Position numbers and translations under genes: made by a program
Source: Chiloscyllium plagiosum
Lineage: Eukaryota
DNA: 64,000 bases
Direction: 5' to 3'
NCBI RefSeq assembly: GCF_004010195.1
Contig: NC_057752.1
Coordinates: forward strand, 3,709,639-3,773,638
Shown: positions 38,360 to 52,929 of the stretch, piece by piece
Layout of the letters: each line of letters starts with the position of its first letter
Numbering within the stretch: the first letter of the stretch is position 1
The notes under the pieces: generated by a model
What the model saw: only the letters and a program-made list of their open reading frames with translations
Told to the model about the DNA's origin: nothing
Database searches by the model: none

Positions 38360-40678
38360 CAAGTCTTGGATACAATCGCTATTGAGTGTTCCTCTCCATT
38401 GGGCCACCTCTGAGCTAATACTACCCTGATGCTGTGCAGGGAGATATCGCATGTCAACACCAGATCTCACTGAGGATCATAGTAGGCCAACACCTTAGAG
38501 GATGATAAAGGTTTCTTCACTTCCCTGAAAGTTATGGCATGGCCAATGGATCCTTTTCAAGGTTGACCCCTTTTTATGAGTTGATGCACGGGTGCAAGGA
38601 TGGAGGCCAGGTTATGTATGAACTTTCCATAATAATTCACCAACAGAAAGAAAGACTGATGTTCCTGCACAGATGTTGGAGCTGAGGCACCTTTGACTGC
38701 CCTCACTCTATCTTCAAATGGGTGTGACCCAGTCTTGTCATCGCTGTTGTCCAAGTAAGTCATTTGCGGTGCCTGGAACACACATTTTTCCCCTCTGGGA
38801 GAAACACCTAAGTACTATGTCCAAGTTCTCTAAGTGTTCCTTATTGGTCTTCCCTGTTATTAACATGTCATCTGGATAAATGGCAACCTGAGGTAGACCT
38901 TGTAAAATGTTCTCCATCGTCCGCTGAAAGATTGCACAGGCTGATGATACCCAAATGGCAGTCTGGTATATCAGCACAAACCCTTATGGGTATTTAATTG
39001 TAGCATACCGCTGGGAATCCTCATCTCACCGCAATTGCAAATACATATGGCTCATGTCCAGCTTTGTAAAGGACAGTCACCCTGCCAGCTTTGTGTACAA
39101 ACCCTCTATGTGAGGGATTGGTATTTATCCAGTGGTGATAAGTGGTTTACTGTTTGTATAAAATACTCACAAAGGTGAGCCAACCCATCGGGCTTCACAA
39201 TCAGTACGCCTGCTGCTGCCCATTTGGTTTGATGATTCCTTCCCTTTCCAGTCTCCCTGATTTCTGCCTGTTTTCACCCATAAGGCATATGGCACTGGGT
39301 GGGTCTTAGAGAATCATGGAACTGTGTCCTGGTCAACATGCAAGGTAGCCTTTGCTCCTTTAACAATCCCTAGACCTTCCTGAAAATCTTACAGGTATTT
39401 AATTAGGACCTCACCTCAGGCAGCCATTTTCTAATCGTGAGCCAATCAAGGTGAATCTCTCTCAATCAATTCCACCCCATCCAGCTTGGGCCCGAGCCTG
39501 TTACTACAGTCACTGAACCAGCTGCTTCTCATATCAGACTGGAACAAAAGTTGTCCCCTTAATCAGTACCAGTTCCCCAGTTTACGTTCTCAGTCTAGCA
39601 GAGGTCATGCATAAACAGAAGGGTTGGAGTTCAGAGTGAATTTTATTAAATACTGGTTCCACAATCCCTGATACAGCCGTGCCAGTATCAACCTCCATTT
39701 GAACTGGGTGACCATTTAACCAGACATTTATTTTGATTGGTTCTGATTTGGATGTTGCTAAGTAATGTAGCTGTTCCAAACCAGATGTAGGTGGGCTTTC
39801 CAGGGTGTGCACTCTCCTGGTTACCAGTCTGTCACTGAGTTCTCTCACTCCATTTCAGTCTAGTGGGACTATCTTGCTATCTTGAATCCACAAACCATCA
39901 GCAACTACACTGGTTTGCCGATCTGGATCCTGAAAAAAAAATGTTAACCATTTGGCCGAGGCTTGGCTTTGTTTTGGGGTTTTGCTGTGGGCTGACAGAG
40001 AGTCCCTCTGCTCGTGATAATGTCCTGAGTGAGACTACACAATTGCCTTCACTCAAGTGGTGTTTCCCAAGCTCAGTCAGACTGGTGAGGTTGCCCACTT
40101 CCATCAGAATACCCTGTAGCTCCCATGCTCCATTTTCTAATGACAAAGCCAGTTGTAGTATCTGTTTGAAGTCCAGTTGGACTTCAGCTAGTAGGTGCGT
40201 TTGCATGGTTACATCATTAATCCTACATACCAAAAAGTTTCTCAGCATCTCATTAAGGGTTAAAGCCTCTGTCAGTCATCTTAGCCTTGTTAAAAATCCT
40301 GATATGGATTCCCCGGTTCTTGAACTGCCAAGTAAACCTGATAATGTCTCAGAATTGGAGTTGTAATTTTCTTTAGCTAACCCTTGAAAAGTTTTTGTAT
40401 CTGATGGCTCAGGGAAAGTTAGGCTCCTCATAACCAAAAAAGCTATGGGTCCACAAGCTGTCAGAAGAATTACTCGTAGATTTTCATCTGCCCCAGTGTC
40501 AGGTGCCCGGAGAAAAAAAAAAACATTCTTTCCACATACTGGGCCCAGTCTTTGACGGCTGGTTCGAATGAGTCAAGCTTCCCAAATAATGGCATGATGC
40601 CAGAAATGCTTACCCCAACTCAAAGACAACTGGTATAAGCGAATTTCTTCAGGAGCATGCTACTCTCTCATCACCACC
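38360..40678 (-). mobile_element. Gypsy/Ty3 LTR retrotransposon internal region (gag, protease, RT, RNase H start), decayed and 3'-truncated
   Basis: gag start MPLFGKLDSF..DWAQYVER at 40595; protease MEVDTGTAVS; RT AIFQRTMENIL..IYPDDMLI, VNYYGKFI; RNase H LAYYDP..VLTCDIS; PBS-like TGGTGATGAG. Confidence 0.9.
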
Positions 40679-40783
40679 TGGTATCCCGTCACCAAGTCAC
40701 CCTTTATTTACAGTTGGAGAGTCCTTGACACTGATCCAGCCCCCTCAGAGCCAGCTCTGAGTGAGCAGAACTTCTAACACTCC

Positions 40784-42238
40784 TTTTTTTTAAAATTTTA
40801 TTATTAACCAGAACAAATTACCAACAAACAGTTAACATGAACAGCCATTTACAAGAAACAGCAATTTACAGGGGAACGGGGCAGCAAATCCAGACCCCAA
40901 ACCTCACCATACAACCAGTTCACAGGGAAAAGAGGATGAACCTCAAATCCCACTTTCAGTCATCATAAAAGTAACAGTAACAAATACATACAAGACAGTC
41001 CAATCAAATGAGAAACAGTGCATAGAATACAGACACCCTCAGCAACCCAGCAAGCCGCCTGTCCCACTCACCTTCCGGCCACTCTAAGGCAGCCCACTAC
41101 CACGCCATGTCCAGCTCTCGGCCCGCTCCACACCCCTACCAGCTTTTGGTCCGCTCCAACACCTTCCGACCACCTCCAGGACAGCCCGTCCCGATTACGC
41201 CTTCTCAGGACGATAGCGCTCAGAACAGCCTACCCACCTTCCGGCTCTCAGGGCGACTGGCATCGGGATGGCCTACCCACACTCCAGCTGTTTGGGCAGC
41301 CTACCCACCTTCAGGTTCACAGGAGGTCCTCCCCACCCTCCAGCTCTCAGTGTGACAGCTTTCAGGATGACCTATAAGCCCACAACTCACAGCAAGGCCT
41401 GCTAGACCCAGGGACACACAAGACAGTGCAGGTGATAATCCCAACAAGCAACAAGACAGAGTCAATTACCAACAAACAGAGTCCTTTCTGGTACACAGAG
41501 TCCATTACCATAAACAGTTCTCTTCAGAATGCAGAATCCATTCCCAGGAACAGAGTCCACTCCAGTTTACAGAATACATTGTTAGAGATAGAGTCCACAA
41601 CCAAAGGCAGAGTCCACTCCTGAAGGCAGCAAATACATACCCCACAGCACACACACAGGTGTTCAGTCTCCATAGAGGCCTGGTTTATCCACAGACAACC
41701 AGGCCAACTCACAGGAACACAGTACATTGTAAAGGTATGGTTAACTCACGGGTTTTGTCCACTCCCGAAGGCAGAATCCACTCCAGGATGCAGCAGATGT
41801 TCACCTCCCAACACACACAATCACAGGTGTTCAGTCTTTACAGAGGCCTAGTCCTCCCACAGAAGGCCAGGCCTACCCACACAGGAACAGTTCATCTGGA
41901 AAGGCGCAGTATCTCACAGGGGGTCAATCCAAACACCAAAGCATAAAACACATGCAAAAAAAAAAAGGAAAGAAAACCAGAATGCGAGGGCTATGCCCTG
42001 CCACAAAAATCAACAGAATTCTTTTCTCAAATTAAAAGAAAAACGAATATCACACAGGCTGCAACCAGCCAGTGAAATAACAGTTCCTATTGAGAACTGA
42101 AATACACCTGTAACGAATTGACTGTTTAGACCAGCCAGTTCAGGAACCAGGTTCCCCCCAAAAAAACACAGAAACCAACTGTAGCAGTACACACTGGCTG
42201 TGTGGCCAGTCAGCTCAGTGTCAGTCACCTGACACAAA
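40784..42238 (-). mobile_element. ~1.45-kb non-coding poly(A) retroposon inserted in the LTR
   Basis: AATAAA plus A-tail at 40784 (minus strand); flanked by duplicated LTR sequence; internal repeats; no recognisable ORF. Confidence 0.65.
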
Positions 42239-42285
42239 TGGAGAGTCTTTGACACTGATCCAGCTCCCTCAGAGCCAGCTCTCAG

Positions 42286-43225
42286 TTTTCTTTCTTTTCC
42301 CAAGTGGCCAGTGACAAACACTGCCCTTCACATCAAAGGGCAGTGTGTGTGATCAAACAGTGAAGGGGAGGGNNNNNNNNNNNNNNNNNNNNNNNNNNNN
42401 NNNNNNNNNNNNNNNNNNNNNNNNNNNNNNNNNNNNNNNNNNNNNNNNNNNNNNNNNNNNNNNNNNNNNNNNNNNNNNNNNNNNNNNNNNNNNNNNNNNN
42501 NNNNNNNNNNNNNNNNNNNNNNNNNNNNNNNNNNNNNNNNNNNNNNNNNNNNNNNNNNNNNNNNNNNNNNNNNNNNNNNNNNNNNNNNNNNNNNNNNNNN
42601 NNNNNNNNNNNNNNNNNNNNNNNNNNNNNNNNNNNNNNNNNNNNNNNNNNNNNNNNNNNNNNNNNNNNNNNNNNNNNNNNNNNNNNNNNNNNNNNNNNNN
42701 NNNNNNNNNNNNNNNNNNNNNNNNNNNNNNNNNNNNNNNNNNNNNNNNNNNNNNNNNNNNNNNNNNNNNNNNNNNNNNNNNNNNNNNNNNNNNNNNNNNN
42801 NNNNNNNNNNNNNNNNNNNNNNNNNNNNNNNNNNNNNNNNNNNNNNNNNNNNNNNNNNNNNNNNNNNNNNNNAGTGTCCCCAAGGCAAGTCCCAGGCAGA
42901 AGCAGTGGATGTGGGCCTCTAACAACAGCAGCAGTGATGGTGGAGGTCCTGGGAGGTGCCCCAAGGCAAGTCCCATGCAGTAGCAGTGAGGCAGGTCCGG
43001 GCGGGGTCCCAGAGACCAGCAGTGGGAGTGGGCCCCAGGTCAGCAGCAACACTCCCTTGACCTGGGTGAGGCCCAGGCTGCAGCTCCAAAAGTAGGCCCA
43101 GGACTCAGAACTCTCACCTCCTCCTCCTGCCTCTGCCTCCTCCTTCTTCCTTCTTCCCTAGAGCTCTCTCGATGTGGGGCAGCTGGTCCAGGGATAGTCC
43201 CTTTCCCCTCTGACACCTTCAAGGA
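42286..43225 (-). mobile_element. Tx1-like LINE ends flanking an assembly gap, inserted in the LTR
   Basis: 42286-42372 is the reverse complement of the 3' UTR of the Tx1-like copy at 52660-52716; GC-rich repeated 5' region 42873-43225. Confidence 0.7.
42373..42872. other. Assembly gap (500 N)
   Basis: Run of N. Confidence 1.
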
Positions 43226-46081
43226 GGAGAGTCCTTGCACACACACGCACATCCAGCTTCCTCAGAAGCAGCTCTCAGAGTGAACAGAACCTCTGACCCT
43301 CCTGTTTATTTCTGTCAGCCAGAGCTCCCTGATTGGACTAGATTAACAGCCCCAATCAGGGAACTCAGATTCTATGAGGTCCATCTGACTGACCTCATTA
43401 CAATCACTGCAATAACATTTCCAATTTTATCATTTCTTCTCAAGATCCAGTTCCTTTGTCCTGGTTGTATTGGTCACTCTGTTCCGTATCCTAGCAATAG
43501 CTGTTATATTTTATATATACTGTGGCGAGCAGAACTGTACACTGTGTTCCGAGTGTTGTCACATCAATGAATATTAAGTGGCAATATTACTTCACTATTC
43601 CAGCTCAACATTAACCTTTTAAGGCATCCCAACATTTGATTTGCTTTACTCACTGTCACTGAGCATGCAAGGGCCACAGGCTACAGATGGGAGACCTCAG
43701 TTTGCAAGTTCCTAGCTTGACAGGTTATCAAGCGTATAACAGTACTTCAACCATAATTGAAGATCTACTGCGGTTATATCATACTCATTGCTTTTTAAGT
43801 TTGATAAGATTTATTTTCTACACTTTCATCTGCACACACTACGTTTATGTCATGTACCCAGACCTGTGGCAAAGTTGCTCTGTAACCACCTGCAAAAAGC
43901 AGTTTAAGGCAACTCCTGGTCTCTCATTATAGGGCAATGCTCTACATTGACAAGGTGCATGAGCAGAATGGCACAACCGAGGTTAGGAATTCAGAATAGT
44001 AACACGTCTTATCCCATGCAAATATCAGATCACCACACCACCATTACAAGACTTACTCCTTTTAACTTTGAGAATCATGGTTCCAGTTCCTTAACTTCAG
44101 TTAAAGGTTCAAGACAGCTAATGTAATATTAGAAATGATCTTTTTCTTTCAGCATTCAACACTTTGACGTATGTGGTATAATCCTTTTGTTTGTGAGCAT
44201 TCCATCAAAAAGGAGCCCTTCAAATAGCACAGGAAGAATCATGTATCTTGCCCTGAACAACTTGCCCTTACAATGCAAAGTTCCTCCTTGGAGTCAAGAG
44301 CTAACATAAAAAGGTCAAATGACAGATCTTCCACTTTCCTAGTCAGACGTGCCCTTTGGCAACATTTCGACATGCACTTTTGTTCCTCCAAAATAATATA
44401 CTATTTCTGGTTTTGCAAGAAAGGATTAACTCTTTGCACTCTTCCAAAGACAGCTCGATCATAAGACAAGGTCAGGTGTATGAGAGGACATGCTGTTAAA
44501 AAATAAATGTCAGGCCGGAGGTAGATTGAAATGGACAGATTTAAGCTTCTTACTTAGGCTCCATCATGGACAAACACCCTGATGGCTTAGTGTGCCCCAT
44601 TGTGTGGTTCCATACGGAGCGATGAAGTGTAAAATGTCCCAGTTTGGTCTGGCAACAGTTGCATCACTACATATGGAGACCGTGGAGCGAGGAAGAGAAA
44701 GAACTGCCAGACTTCATGCTCCTGGTTGCTGTTTCTACTAGACTGTACATTTGGATTGCTTTAATCTCGACTCCAGGACAAATTCCTCACCAACACATAC
44801 AGCCTGGAATCCTGCATTAAGATTAGTAAGGTCTAGAGAAAGCCACTGGCACACATTATAACAGTGTTTCTTTACCAATCAGTATCGTAGAAAGGGCTGA
44901 GGGAATGTGAGTTCGGTCTAAACAGTGCAGTAAAACTCATTCTAGGTTGATACTAAATTGGGCTCTTCGCAAAAGTTTGATGAAGGCTGCTTAATTATAA
45001 ACAGTTATGCCAAGGTGATGGCAAATTGAGAAGAATTGACATTCTTGGAGCTGTTTAACTCAGTTTATCATGTCAGCCTCCAGTGTCTTTCACCAATAGA
45101 CTAGTTAATGGCTGTAGGTTACCTTGGGGAAAAGTTAAATGGCTCCACACCTTTATCTCCAGTCTGGGAGGTGAGATTCACTCCATCTTCCAAGTACAGC
45201 AAGATCTAGGATTCCAACAGCAGGAGGCAAAAATGATGGTCTATGGAGTATCTCTTAAACTAGAGGGAGAATAATTGAATTTGAGTCTCTGTATAACATT
45301 TATTTATCTAAAGCAGTTCTTATTGGATTAAATGTTCTTTGTTTTTACCAAGTGACTTTCTTGAGTTAAATCCAGAAAAAAATCTTATTAAAGCCTGTCA
45401 AATGTTACTTTAGTATCCATTTATAATTTAAATATAGAGTACATTTGTATCGCAATTATCTGCTCTTTAACATGATTGTCATGGATTGAAATTTCAGAAG
45501 GATTTTATTTCTGCAAAACAAAAGGAATTATCTCTTTAAAACCTAACTTTGGAGGGAGGGAGAGGATCTGTAGTTTGAGATTCAATACACACACGCGCAC
45601 ACACACACCCCATTTGGGTGGATGAGCAGCAGATTATGTTGTGCTATCTGGGGCTTGGAGCAGGGAAGAGCCCAGAGCAACATCTGAAGCAGTGAAACTT
45701 CCAAGCACAGATGAAAGAGACGAATAATCTTCTCACTCCCAACGAACTCTAAAATGAATAAGTAAACTCATGCAGACATAAACTATTCATCAAAGTATGA
45801 ATTTTAAAATAATTCCCATGTCATCATTTTATTTACTACTTGGGGGCACAGGTAGAGAAAGAGGCAAGTGTAATGAGGGTCACATTGGCATAATGACATT
45901 AGAAAGATGTGTCACGATCCACTGCATTGAAGGCACACATACACCTACCCAATAAATAAAGCACTCATCAACTTCCTCCCTTCATTAACAATATGAAGGA
46001 CAGACCTATTTGATGTTTGCACAATCTTAATTGTGGACAAAATGGCTGCCACAGTTCCCATAACAGCCACATCATTGCAGA

Positions 46082-51819: not shown

Positions 51820-52386
51820 AAGTTAATATCCTCCTCATTATTTTTTTCTGTTGCACAGGTCTCCAATTGGCGTGCACGAAACCTCTTGGATGCGCAGCTG
51901 AGAGAGAATATTGTCTGTAACCTGCCCCATCCTTCTCCCCTCCTGAAGCCCCTCCATACACTGTGTGCTGTCTGTTCAATTTCACTGAGCACTGGCAGCT
52001 TGCCAATATTTTGTACAAGCCACCCAACCAGGGAAACAGTTTGTGATGGCACTGGCTGTTAGGGGTGTCTCTTCCAACACCTGTCCAGCTTGCACCAGAG
52101 TGGAACATTGCCCCGAACTGCTCTTTCAAAGTCTTAACAGAGTCTGTTTTTGCAGCTCCTTCATTGGACTGTGACTTCTGCTCAGGATTGGACGTTTTAT
52201 AACAAGCAAGGATGGAACATAAACATAAGATTAAGTCAACTTGCCTATAGTCAGACAGCAGGGAAACAGACCCTTTAGTCAATCCCAAACTCAACTAGTC
52301 CCATCTGCCTGCTCCTGGCCCATATCCCTCCTAACCTTTCTTGTTCATGTCCTTATCCAAATTAACCAATAATAACCACCACTGCA

Positions 52387-52929
52387 CCCGGTACGGAGGA
52401 GGGAGGGCAGGTCTGAAGACCTCCTCGTGGGTCTGCTCCTGGGCCTGGCGAAACTGACCATAAACAGGTCCAGGCAGCGGGCCGTGGAGGGGGTCGTTAG
52501 GGCCGACTGCCTGCCCCTCTTCCGCGGTTACGTTAGAGCCCGGGTGTCCTTGGAGAAGGAGCACGCGGTCTCCACCAACACCCTGGAGTTGTTCAGGGAG
52601 AGGTGGGTGCCGCAGGGAGTGGAGTGCATTATTTCCCCCTCCAACTCTATGTTGGTTTAATCCCTGCCCTCCCCTTCACTGTTTGATCACACAGCATTGC
52701 CCTTTGATGTGAAGGGGTGTTTCCTTTCTTCCTGGTGGTGGAAATTGAATAAAGATTTGTACACCTTGTGTCTTTCACTGGGTCTCACACCTGCACACAC
52801 ACACAACATGGGTACTGGGGAAAAATATATAAAAAAACAGAAGTGTCAGATATCCTGTTCATTCTGACAGCTGGCTCTGAGAGACTCTCCACATGTAAAT
52901 AAAGGGTGACTTGGTGACAGAAAAAAAAA
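52387..52929 (+). mobile_element. 5'-truncated Tx1-like LINE with 3'-appended Gypsy LTR segment
   Basis: GLLLGLAKLTINRSR..LFRGYVRARVSLE..FRERW; A-tail 52821-52837; LTR piece 52838-52920; second A-tail; imperfect TSD aataaccaccactgca / aataaacactgca. Confidence 0.75.

What the first reader, a model, noticed from the sequence alone, without database searches (positions are those of the whole stretch)
40679..43411. Poly(A)/Tx1-like retroposons inserted twice into the same ~70-bp window of a Gypsy LTR, with long target duplications sharing one border
Seen: the LTR segment starting (t)ggagagtc occurs three times, at 40715-40783, 42239-42285 and 43226-~43302. The copies bracket two different minus-strand inserts that each begin with a T-rich (A-tail) end. 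This reads as two nested insertions with TSDs of ~69 and ~47 bp. Both 5' junctions fall after the same LTR motif (...GACTCTCC in LTR sense), ~10 nt before the LTR AATAAA. Both 3' junctions lie just downstream of the LTR's TATA-like AAATAAAC. Established: the Tx1 clade contains sequence-specific LINEs that target multicopy sequences (Xenopus Tx1L into Tx1D DNA transposons, Keno into U2 snRNA genes, Mutsu into 5S rDNA). Inference: this is a Tx1 lineage plus a non-autonomous partner that targets Gypsy LTRs between promoter and poly(A) signal, possibly borrowing both. I do not know of a described LTR-targeting Tx1, but I cannot search.
Basis: partly seen in the sequence, partly recalled or inferred. 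Interest (0 to 1): 0.8.

Follow-up and report, generated by a model that had tools for sequence, protein, structure and literature searches.

The report
Tx1 LINE stack in an LTR
Two poly(A) retroposons of a frog-Tx1-type LINE system sit one behind the other at that system's usual landing site, just after the TATA-like box of an old LTR; the repeated LTR pieces between them are likely LTR leader sequence that the inserts carry or regenerate, not two fresh target duplications, and LINEs of this clade that aim at LTRs are already in print.

Summary
The triplicated LTR segment is real: A 40716-40783, B 40240-side copy at 42240-42285, C 43226-43304. It lies in the minus-strand 5' LTR of a degraded LTR retroelement.

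The inserts are a 1.45-kb non-coding retroposon (ins1) and the 3' and 5' ends of a LINE on either side of a 500-N gap (ins2). The LINE's ORF2 has an APE endonuclease and RT, and is 52% identical to Xenopus Tx1.

Targeting is supported in the genome.
- 9 of 29 LTR copies sampled by U3 alone carry such inserts at one site (TATAAA^CAGGAGTGTCA).
- 8-11 of 26 LINE 3' ends and 10-14 of 29 ins1 3' ends abut it. Shuffled flanks gave 0.
- One element has an empty 5' LTR and an occupied 3' LTR.

The nested 69/47-bp TSD reading is only partly supported.
- All 29 other LINE 5' ends carry the same LTR R piece, marked by a lineage-specific (CA)n expansion. C is therefore largely inherited.
- B/C is the least similar pair.
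- B starts where the LTR's TATA box predicts transcription to start.

Real long duplications do occur at other loci.

LTR-targeting Tx1 families are in print (Kojima 2015), and this scan has noted this system in the same genome before. New member of a known kind.

The parts
43305..43411 (-). U3 of the LTR. The LTR 5' end TGCAGTG is at 43411. There are CCAAT-like motifs, and the TATA-like AAATAAA is at 43305-43311.
   Evidence: Homology to other copies ends at 43406-43412. Aligned with 29 other LTR copies.
43226..43304 (-). Copy C of the LTR R segment (reference positions 108-179), with a CA-rich expansion. It is contiguous with U3.
   Evidence: The same expanded form precedes all 29 other LINE 5' ends.
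42873..43225 (-). ins2b: the 5' end (5' UTR region) of the Tx1-type LINE.
   Evidence: 448 first-look candidates. In L126 the same sequence leads into the ORFs with APE and RT domains.
42373..42872 (.). Assembly gap of 500 N. It presumably hides the LINE body; the true size is unknown.
42286..42372 (-). ins2a: a LINE 3' UTR fragment that ends early in an A-rich tail (GGGAAAAGAAAGAAAA in sense, 42286-42301).
   Evidence: 93% identical to the LINE 3' UTR at 52667-52722. Compared with canonical 3' UTRs.
42240..42285 (-). Copy B of the R segment (reference positions 134-179). In sense it starts CTGAGAGC, 32-33 nt downstream of the first T of the family's TATAAA.
   Evidence: It is the only sampled full-length ins1 copy whose upstream R starts there (0 of 11 others).
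40784..42239 (-). ins1: a 1.45-kb non-coding poly(A) retroposon. The A8 tail is at 40784-40791. The 3' 'X unit' runs to about 41097. Internal repeats follow. The 5' end (about 42190-42233) is a truncated R segment of a second LTR subtype.
   Evidence: More than 2300 first-look candidates, 5'-truncated copies and tandem stacks. No Rfam match.
40716..40783 (-). Copy A: most likely the LTR's own resident R segment (reference positions 110-179), abutting the ins1 tail at the canonical site.
40679..40715 (-). Rest of the LTR: the poly(A) signal AATAAA (40703-40708) and U5. About 19 nt of the U5 end are deleted here compared with other copies.
39582..40678 (-). Internal start of the LTR element: a PBS-like TGGTGATGAGAG followed by gag-like and protease (DTG) frames.
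   Evidence: ORFs. The region is repeated together with the LTR (L002, L022). A relative's ORF gives a sub-threshold aspartyl protease match and protease+RT look-alikes.
52383..52929 (+). Second copy of the system in the window: a 5'-truncated LINE (ORF2 C-terminus and 3' UTR), then A7, an LTR R segment, AATAAA, 17 nt, and A9 at 52921-52929. This is a 3' transduction through the LTR poly(A) signal.
   Evidence: L037 has the same architecture at another locus.

Best explanation
The region is the 5' LTR of an old LTR retroelement that carries a head-to-tail stack of two retroposons of one Tx1-clade LINE system at that system's preferred site next to the LTR's TATA-like box; the three LTR pieces are most likely the LTR's own R segment (A) plus R-derived segments that full-length inserts carry as 5' leaders or regenerate on integration (B and C), and not two fresh nested target duplications.

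Shown:
- The LINE encodes an APE endonuclease and an RT closest to Xenopus Tx1.
- Its 3' tails, and those of the non-coding ins1 family, abut CAGGAGTGTCA... immediately after TATAAA in a large share of copies.
- 5'-truncated copies have 8-14-bp duplications.
- Each insertion regenerates the site, so arrays form.
- Every sampled LINE 5' end is preceded by the same R piece with a private (CA)n expansion. In one sublineage that piece is internal to the element.
- Some copies end at the LTR's poly(A) site.

Inferred:
- The endonuclease nicks the bottom strand at 5'-CTCCTG^TTTAT.
- Inserts are transcribed from the LTR promoter, so their RNA begins in R.
- On re-insertion, the R leader pairs with the target's R, giving an apparent duplication of about 75 bp with a fixed border.
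- The order of the two insertions in this window is open.
For: Tx1 identity:
- ORF2 pieces of L126 match Exo_endo_phos and RVT_1.
- The best named relative is the Xenopus Tx1 149-kDa ORF2: 52% identity, 98% coverage, E 2e-205.

Site preference:
- Of 93 R fragments in 116 loci, 41 start at reference positions 100-109. Most of these are preceded by LINE or ins1 tails.
- LINE 3' ends: 8 of 26 pass the strict test and 11 of 26 have the 11-mer. ins1 3' ends: 10 of 29 strict. Shuffled flanks gave 0 of 26 and 0 of 29. Random windows gave 53 of 4000.
- Of 29 LTRs sampled by U3 alone, 17 are empty, 9 are occupied at the site and 3 carry unrelated inserts elsewhere.

Independent insertion: L176 has an empty 5' LTR, and a 3' LTR holding a 190-bp LINE end with a 13-bp TSD.

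Inherited leader:
- All 29 other LINE 5' ends are preceded by the R piece. The spacer is 9-27 nt in the 26 that could be measured, against 4 nt in 8 of 9 generic LTRs.
- About 20 of the 29 have the piece internal to the element, with variable 5' truncation upstream of it.

The three copies in the window:
- B/C is less alike than A/B.
- B is as close to an unrelated LTR copy (2 mismatches) as to A (3 mismatches).
- B starts 32-33 nt after the TATA start.
- The truncated R of the second LTR subtype inside ins1 starts at the equivalent place.

3' transduction: window 52838-52929 and L037.
Against: - None of the 11 other full-length ins1 copies has an upstream R that starts at 134; all run to the canonical site. 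A leader limited by the transcription start is therefore seen only here.
- A second candidate for such a start, the LINE sublineage junction, is ambiguous between reference position 135 and about 146 (my reading).
- Real in-situ long duplications exist. L152 and L155 share private variants between the upstream and downstream R copies. L080 has a tail-only insert with a duplication of about 75 bp.
- Upstream R copies of ins1 show no lineage marker.
- No RNA data place a transcription start. The single-cell poly(A) reads that were laid touch only the LINE 3' UTR and come from other copies.
- Linkage of C and ins2b to the rest crosses an unsized gap.
Confidence: 0.6

Rival explanations
1. ins1 inserted first with a 69-bp TSD (A and a full upstream copy). 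The LINE then inserted into that upstream copy with a 47-bp TSD (B and C). Both second-strand nicks fell at one hot spot after GGACTCTCC, about 8 nt before the poly(A) signal.
For: Full-length ins1 copies have a full R upstream in 11 of 11 cases, and 8 of those are contiguous with U3. L152, L155 and L080 show private variants shared by the two R copies of one locus. Three founder junctions lie 3-9 nt before the TAAATAA of the poly(A) signal: ins1 body on the second-subtype R, ins1 on the first-subtype R, and the LINE on R. Many [tail]-R(105-n)-[A tail]-R arrangements could be tail-only inserts with 26-88-bp TSDs.
Against: C carries the LINE lineage's inherited (CA)n marker. B/C shows 7 mismatches plus an indel, while A/B shows 3 mismatches, although B/C should be the younger pair. 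The model needs a first nick at R position 134. That position is used by none of the roughly 40 other tail-preceded R fragments. The upstream-copy ends scatter (131-193) and do not pile up at 179.
Confidence: 0.25
2. Composite LTR. The inserts entered one ancestral LTR once, and the LTR-plus-insert unit was then copied by the LTR element's own retrotransposition. On this view the recurring arrangement is inheritance, not targeting.
For: The same R-ins1-R arrangement, with identical junctions, recurs at many loci.
Against: 17 of 29 LTRs are empty. Occupied LTRs hold different inserts truncated at different points. The two LTRs of L176 differ in occupancy. LINE and ins1 copies also lie outside LTRs.
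Confidence: 0.05
3. Scaffolding artefact. C and the LINE 5' end belong to another LTR copy and were joined to B across the 500-N gap by mistake. On this view only a duplication (A and B) is real at this locus.
For: The gap is unsized, and the sequences on both sides are high-copy repeats. No laid contig bridges the gap.
Against: The orientation and order fit a single LINE, with its 3' end left of the gap and its 5' end right of it. The arrangement U3-R(CA)n-LINE recurs elsewhere: L097, L122.
Confidence: 0.1

Closest known systems
Tx1-8_Crp and Tx1-4_AMi, crocodilian Tx1-clade LINEs (Kojima 2015, PMC4494074; passages read)
   Same: [quoted passage not shown] The paper's criterion for target specificity (more than 20% of flanks) is met here.
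   Different: The paper gives one sentence and no site, TSD or leader details in the passages I read. I did not open its supplementary figures. The host here is different (probably a cartilaginous fish, judged only from a stingray hit). Here the site is mapped to the TATA-like box and the inserts carry LTR R sequence.
Tx1L of Xenopus laevis, inserted in the piggyBac-type transposon Tx1D
   Same: It is the closest named ORF2 (52% identity). It is a LINE that homes into one site of another transposon (as stated in Kojima 2015).
   Different: The target here is an LTR, not a DNA transposon. The TSD length of Tx1L is only recalled, not checked.
SINEU and Tx1-Mar in crocodilians (Kojima 2015)
   Same: A non-autonomous family is inferred to be mobilised by a Tx1 LINE because both share a target. 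Sequence is repeatedly added to 5' ends. A 5' extension is derived from the target transposon. The paper proposes transcription from the flanking target.
   Different: The heads there are U1/U2 snRNA-derived and the target is a Mariner. Here the heads are LTR R segments and the partner is 1.45 kb long.
R2/R1 co-transcription with their rDNA target, SVA 5' transduction (MAST2) and L1 3' transduction
   Same: These elements depend on a flanking promoter and carry flanking sequence in the RNA. R2 and SVA are cited in Kojima 2015. L1 3' transduction is recalled.
   Different: Those are different clades and targets. Here the same LTR would supply both promoter and terminator. The promoter role is inferred; the terminator role is shown in 2 copies.

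Membership tests
Tx1 clade of non-LTR retrotransposons | ORF2 with an N-terminal APE-type endonuclease followed by a reverse transcriptase | tested here: met
   L126 ORF2 pieces match Exo_endo_phos (E 1.4e-12) and RVT_1 (E 3.9e-15 and 8.5e-13).
Tx1 clade of non-LTR retrotransposons | RT/ORF2 groups with Tx1 and not with L1 or other clades | tested here: inconclusive
   The best named hit is Xenopus Tx1 ORF2 (52% identity, 98% coverage, E 2e-205), ahead of fish relatives at about 40%. No tree with outgroups or RTclass1 was run.
Target-specific non-LTR retrotransposon (criterion of Kojima 2015: one kind of sequence in more than 20% of flanks) | The same target sequence flanks more than 20% of copies | tested here: met
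   LINE 3' flanks: 8 of 26 strict, 11 of 26 by 11-mer. ins1 3' flanks: 10 of 29 strict. Shuffled flanks: 0 of 26 and 0 of 29. Random windows: 53 of 4000.
Non-autonomous partner (SINE-like) of the LINE | Shares the LINE's 3' end sequence | tested here: not met
   BLAST of 39500-44500 against the window found no match between the ins1 3' end and the LINE 3' end at 52.4-52.8 kb. Only the A-rich tail type and the target site are shared, so mobilisation in trans is inferred from the shared target.
Non-autonomous partner (SINE-like) of the LINE | No coding capacity; 5'-truncated copies with a common 3' end; same target as the LINE | tested here: met
   No sense ORF of 90 aa or more lies wholly inside ins1. 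Truncated and stacked copies are seen. The junction is the same.
Gypsy (Ty3) LTR retrotransposon | LTRs with TG...CA ends, a PBS after the 5' LTR and a PPT before the 3' LTR | tested here: met
   The LTR is about 236 bp, TGTAGTG...TTATTTCA. A PBS-like TGGTGATGAGAG follows it in the window. A purine tract GGGGGTGGCAGAAA precedes the 3' LTR of L176.
Gypsy (Ty3) LTR retrotransposon | pol with the order PR-RT-RH-IN, and an RT that groups with Ty3/Gypsy | tested here: inconclusive
   Only gag-like and protease frames were found. Aspartyl protease matches are below Pfam cut-offs. Atlas look-alikes are protease+RT proteins of unresolved superfamily. All sampled copies are degraded, and the L176 internal region is only about 2.8 kb.
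   B/C shows 7 mismatches and 8 gap columns; A/B shows 3 mismatches. C carries the LINE lineage's (CA)n marker.

The most novel reading that the evidence does not exclude
A Tx1 LINE lineage and its non-coding companion have made the LTR's R region part of their own transcript. They land just after the LTR's TATA box. They are transcribed from the LTR promoter and sometimes terminated by the LTR poly(A) signal. They use R-to-R homology between the cDNA end and the target to complete the 5' junction. The result is an integration partly guided by homology, which yields apparent duplications of about 75 bp with one fixed border.
Probability: 0.35. Interest if true: 0.65.

Novelty: new member of a known kind. 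Interest (0 to 1): 0.45.

Why it matters
How the 5' end of a LINE is joined to the target, and how promoter-less LINE and SINE copies get transcribed, are both poorly understood. This system offers many natural copies in which a host LTR would supply a TATA box upstream and does supply a poly(A) signal downstream of one insertion site. The element's 5' end is homologous to the target. That makes promoter hitch-hiking and homology-assisted 5' joining testable by junction census, CAGE and nicking assays. The basic phenomenon, a Tx1 LINE homing into another transposon including LTR elements, is already described. This scan has also already noted it elsewhere in this genome.

Tried and rejected
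- Composite-LTR amplification was considered. I rejected it on the L176 LTR pair and the diversity of inserts.
- The partner-LTR test at L030 was uninformative: it is a solo LTR with no second LTR or internal region within 10 kb.
- The TSD test by within-locus versus between-locus identity of R copies was weak: 0.87 in 7 loci against 0.83 +/- 0.07. Only L152 and L155 show private shared variants.
- A third junction that I first read as a transcription-start-limited leader (the LINE sublineage) is ambiguous between reference position 135 and about 146, so I dropped it as evidence.
- Pfam found nothing in the window's gag-like and protease frames or in the LINE ORF1-region frames.
- Three LTR-adjacent regions and two protease-anchored regions yielded no intact pol.
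- Rfam found no RNA family in 40000-44000 at E <= 0.1.
- The first three LINE regions I fetched were 5'-truncated.
- No RNA holder was listed for the stretch. RNA reads of X22 lay only partly on the LINE 3' UTR and come from other copies, so they say nothing about this locus.
- Short-read contigs do not bridge the gap, and do not bridge the B/ins2 junction.
- One script error was fixed. One malformed search term was corrected.


Full report
**What is there**

On the + strand the order is as follows.
- LTR U5 and poly(A) signal: 40679-40715.
- R copy A: 40716-40783.
- ins1: 40784-42239, starting with T8.
- R copy B: 42240-42285.
- ins2a: 42286-42372, starting with ttttctttcttttccc.
- 500 N: 42373-42872.
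- ins2b: 42873-43225.
- R copy C: 43226-43304.
- U3: 43305-43411.

Everything is in minus-strand sense. Homology to other genomic copies stops at 43406-43412, where the LTR begins TGCAGTG. To the left of 40679 lie a PBS-like TGGTGATGAGAG and gag-like and protease (DTG) frames. That stretch is repeated together with the LTR in L002 and L022. This is therefore the 5' LTR of a degraded LTR retroelement.

Its Gypsy assignment could not be confirmed.
- Aspartyl protease matches are below Pfam cut-offs.
- Atlas look-alikes are protease+RT proteins of unresolved superfamily.
- No intact pol was found in five regions.

**The empty LTR**

Sampling the genome with U3 alone (43296-43411) shows a short LTR of about 236 bp. 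I used one natural copy (L067) as a ruler.

| Feature | Reference position |
|---|---|
| TATA box (TATAAA in most copies) | ends at 107 |
| R segment CAGGAGTGTCAGAGG...GGACTCTCC | 108-179 |
| AATAAA | 187-192 |
| LTR end ...TTATTTCA | about 236 |

Of the 29 sampled copies:
- 17 are uninterrupted.
- 9 carry a poly(A)-type insert at 105-118.
- 3 carry unrelated inserts near 141-143.

**The inserts**

ins2a matches a LINE 3' UTR that is also present at 52667-52722. ins2b is the 5' end of the same LINE family. In L126 it leads into frames with Exo_endo_phos and RVT_1. The best named relative of those frames is Xenopus Tx1 ORF2, at 52% identity over 98% of 636 aa and E 2e-205. I ran no tree with outgroups.

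ins1 is a 1.45-kb non-coding family.
- It has more than 2300 first-look candidates.
- It has an A-rich tail and a 3' unit of about 300 bp that often occurs alone or stacked.
- It has no Rfam match.
- Its 3' end shows no similarity to the LINE's.

Its mobilisation by the LINE is therefore inferred from the shared target. Kojima (2015) made the same inference for SINEU and Tx1-Mar.

**Targeting**

The flanks were not part of the queries.
- Of 93 R fragments in 116 loci, 41 begin at reference positions 100-109. Most of these lie directly after LINE hairpin-plus-tail or ins1 tails.
- By a strict local-alignment test, 8 of 26 LINE 3' ends and 10 of 29 ins1 3' ends abut R from its first bases. Shuffled flanks gave 0 of 26 and 0 of 29.
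- The 11-mer CAGGAGTGTCA, allowing up to 2 mismatches, follows 11 of 26 LINE ends and 8 of 29 ins1 ends. It occurs in 53 of 4000 random windows.
- Six more ins1 ends abut a divergent second LTR subtype (by eye).

L176 settles independence. One element has an empty 5' LTR, while its 3' LTR holds a 190-bp LINE end with the 13-bp duplication AACA(A/G)GAGTGTCA. Five of the nine occupied LTRs have the 5' junction at 112-118, so the ordinary TSD is about 8-14 bp.

**Why the long repeats are not simply nested TSDs**

- All 29 other genomic copies of the LINE 5' end are preceded by ...GGACTCTCC at the same nucleotide. That R piece carries a CA-rich expansion. The spacer is 9-27 nt in the 26 copies where it could be measured. 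It is 4 nt in 8 of 9 generic LTRs; the ninth is the hybrid L080.
- In about 20 of the 29 copies the piece is internal: a LINE 3' UTR fragment lies upstream of it. That fragment is truncated at variable points and joined to the TATA-side half-site. The piece therefore travels in the RNA.
- In the window, C has the marker. Over B's span, B/C shows 7 mismatches and 8 gap columns, while A/B shows 3 mismatches. Yet the nested model makes B/C the younger pair. B is also as close to an unrelated LTR copy (2 mismatches) as to A.
- The nested model needs the LINE's first nick at R position 134. None of the roughly 40 other tail-preceded fragments starts there.

**What supports long duplications**

- All 11 other full-length ins1 copies have a full R upstream, ending at the same border. 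Eight of them are contiguous with U3.
- L152 and L155 share private variants between the two R copies of one locus.
- L080 has a tail-only insert between two R copies that share three private variants. The far end of its upstream copy has the LINE-type CA expansion. That is the hybrid expected if a leader pairs in register with the target.
- The many [tail]-R(105-n)-[A tail]-R arrangements, with n from 131 to 193, fit either of two readings. They could be tail-only inserts with long TSDs. They could also be 3' transduction polyadenylated shortly after an AATAAA recreated at the tail junction. I could not separate these.

**Promoter and terminator**

- B starts at CTGAGAGC, 32-33 nt after the first T of the TATA box. 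That is where a Pol II start is expected from textbook spacing.
- The truncated R of the second LTR subtype inside ins1 starts at the equivalent place, within about 3-5 nt.

These are two suggestive points and not proof. No RNA data bear on them.

Use of the LTR terminator is shown in two copies. The copy at 52383-52929 and the locus L037 both end with R, AATAAA, 17-20 nt and then a poly(A) run.

**Order of events in the window**

Two orders fit, and the evidence does not decide between them.
- The LINE landed first at the canonical site, and an LTR-promoted ins1 RNA then landed between its tail and R. On this order B is the ins1 leader.
- ins1 landed first with a long duplication, and the LINE then entered the upstream copy at an unusual nick.

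**Known or new**

Kojima 2015 (PMC4494074; passages read) states the following.
- Many Tx1 elements are target-specific.
- Tx1-8_Crp and Tx1-4_AMi prefer LTR retrotransposons.
- 5' extensions can derive from the target.
- Transcription may depend on the flank.

A full-text search listing showed no paper on such a system in sharks or rays among its top 15 of 108 hits. I read only the listing. Earlier notes of this scan describe the same LINE stacking at the same LTR site elsewhere in this genome. The targeting is therefore a re-finding. The R leader, the long repeats and the 3' transduction are the additions made here.

Noticed in passing
L064, L074, L090 (LTR reference positions 141-143); also the deletion start in L075: Three unrelated inserts (two SINE-like, one unknown) break the LTR R segment within 3 nt of each other. 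This may be a second hot spot, or an alignment effect of the GCTGG...GCTGG repeat.
   Followed up: no
L043, L044, L049, L052/L060, L020: LINE-behind-LINE arrays in which the older copy is 5'-truncated in the ORF2 C-terminal region. Only about 10 nt of target (tgagacactcc) lies between the copies. The LINE sequence there (cctctgacctgccctg) resembles the LTR target motif.
   Followed up: partly
L098-L125 (about 20 of 29 loci): A LINE sublineage whose 5' end is extended by a LINE 3' UTR fragment fused to the R(CA)n piece. The junction is GGCCACTCGGGTGTTTTCCCCTTT|GAGAGTTGGATCAG and has no A tail. It looks like a template switch or a read-through product that then amplified.
   Followed up: partly
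L176 5415-8860 (minus strand): An LTR element with only about 2.8 kb between its LTRs, holding a gag-like and protease frame. The targeted LTR family may be largely non-autonomous. About 4 kb of that locus is withheld as N.
   Followed up: partly
window 42217-42418 in run X22: Single-cell poly(A) RNA reads contain this LINE family's 3' UTR. All 217 laid reads fit only partly, so they come from other copies. The family is present in RNA somewhere in the genome.
   Followed up: no
P0031: A stingray protein annotated as von Willebrand factor A domain-containing 7-like contains a stretch 62% identical to this Tx1 ORF2. It is likely an annotation chimera. It also hints that the host is a cartilaginous fish.
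   Followed up: no
window 41456-41904: ins1 contains internal repeats: 19-nt tandem units (41456-41517 and 41840-41885), and a 150-nt duplication at 74% identity (41593-41735 and 41757-41904).
   Followed up: no
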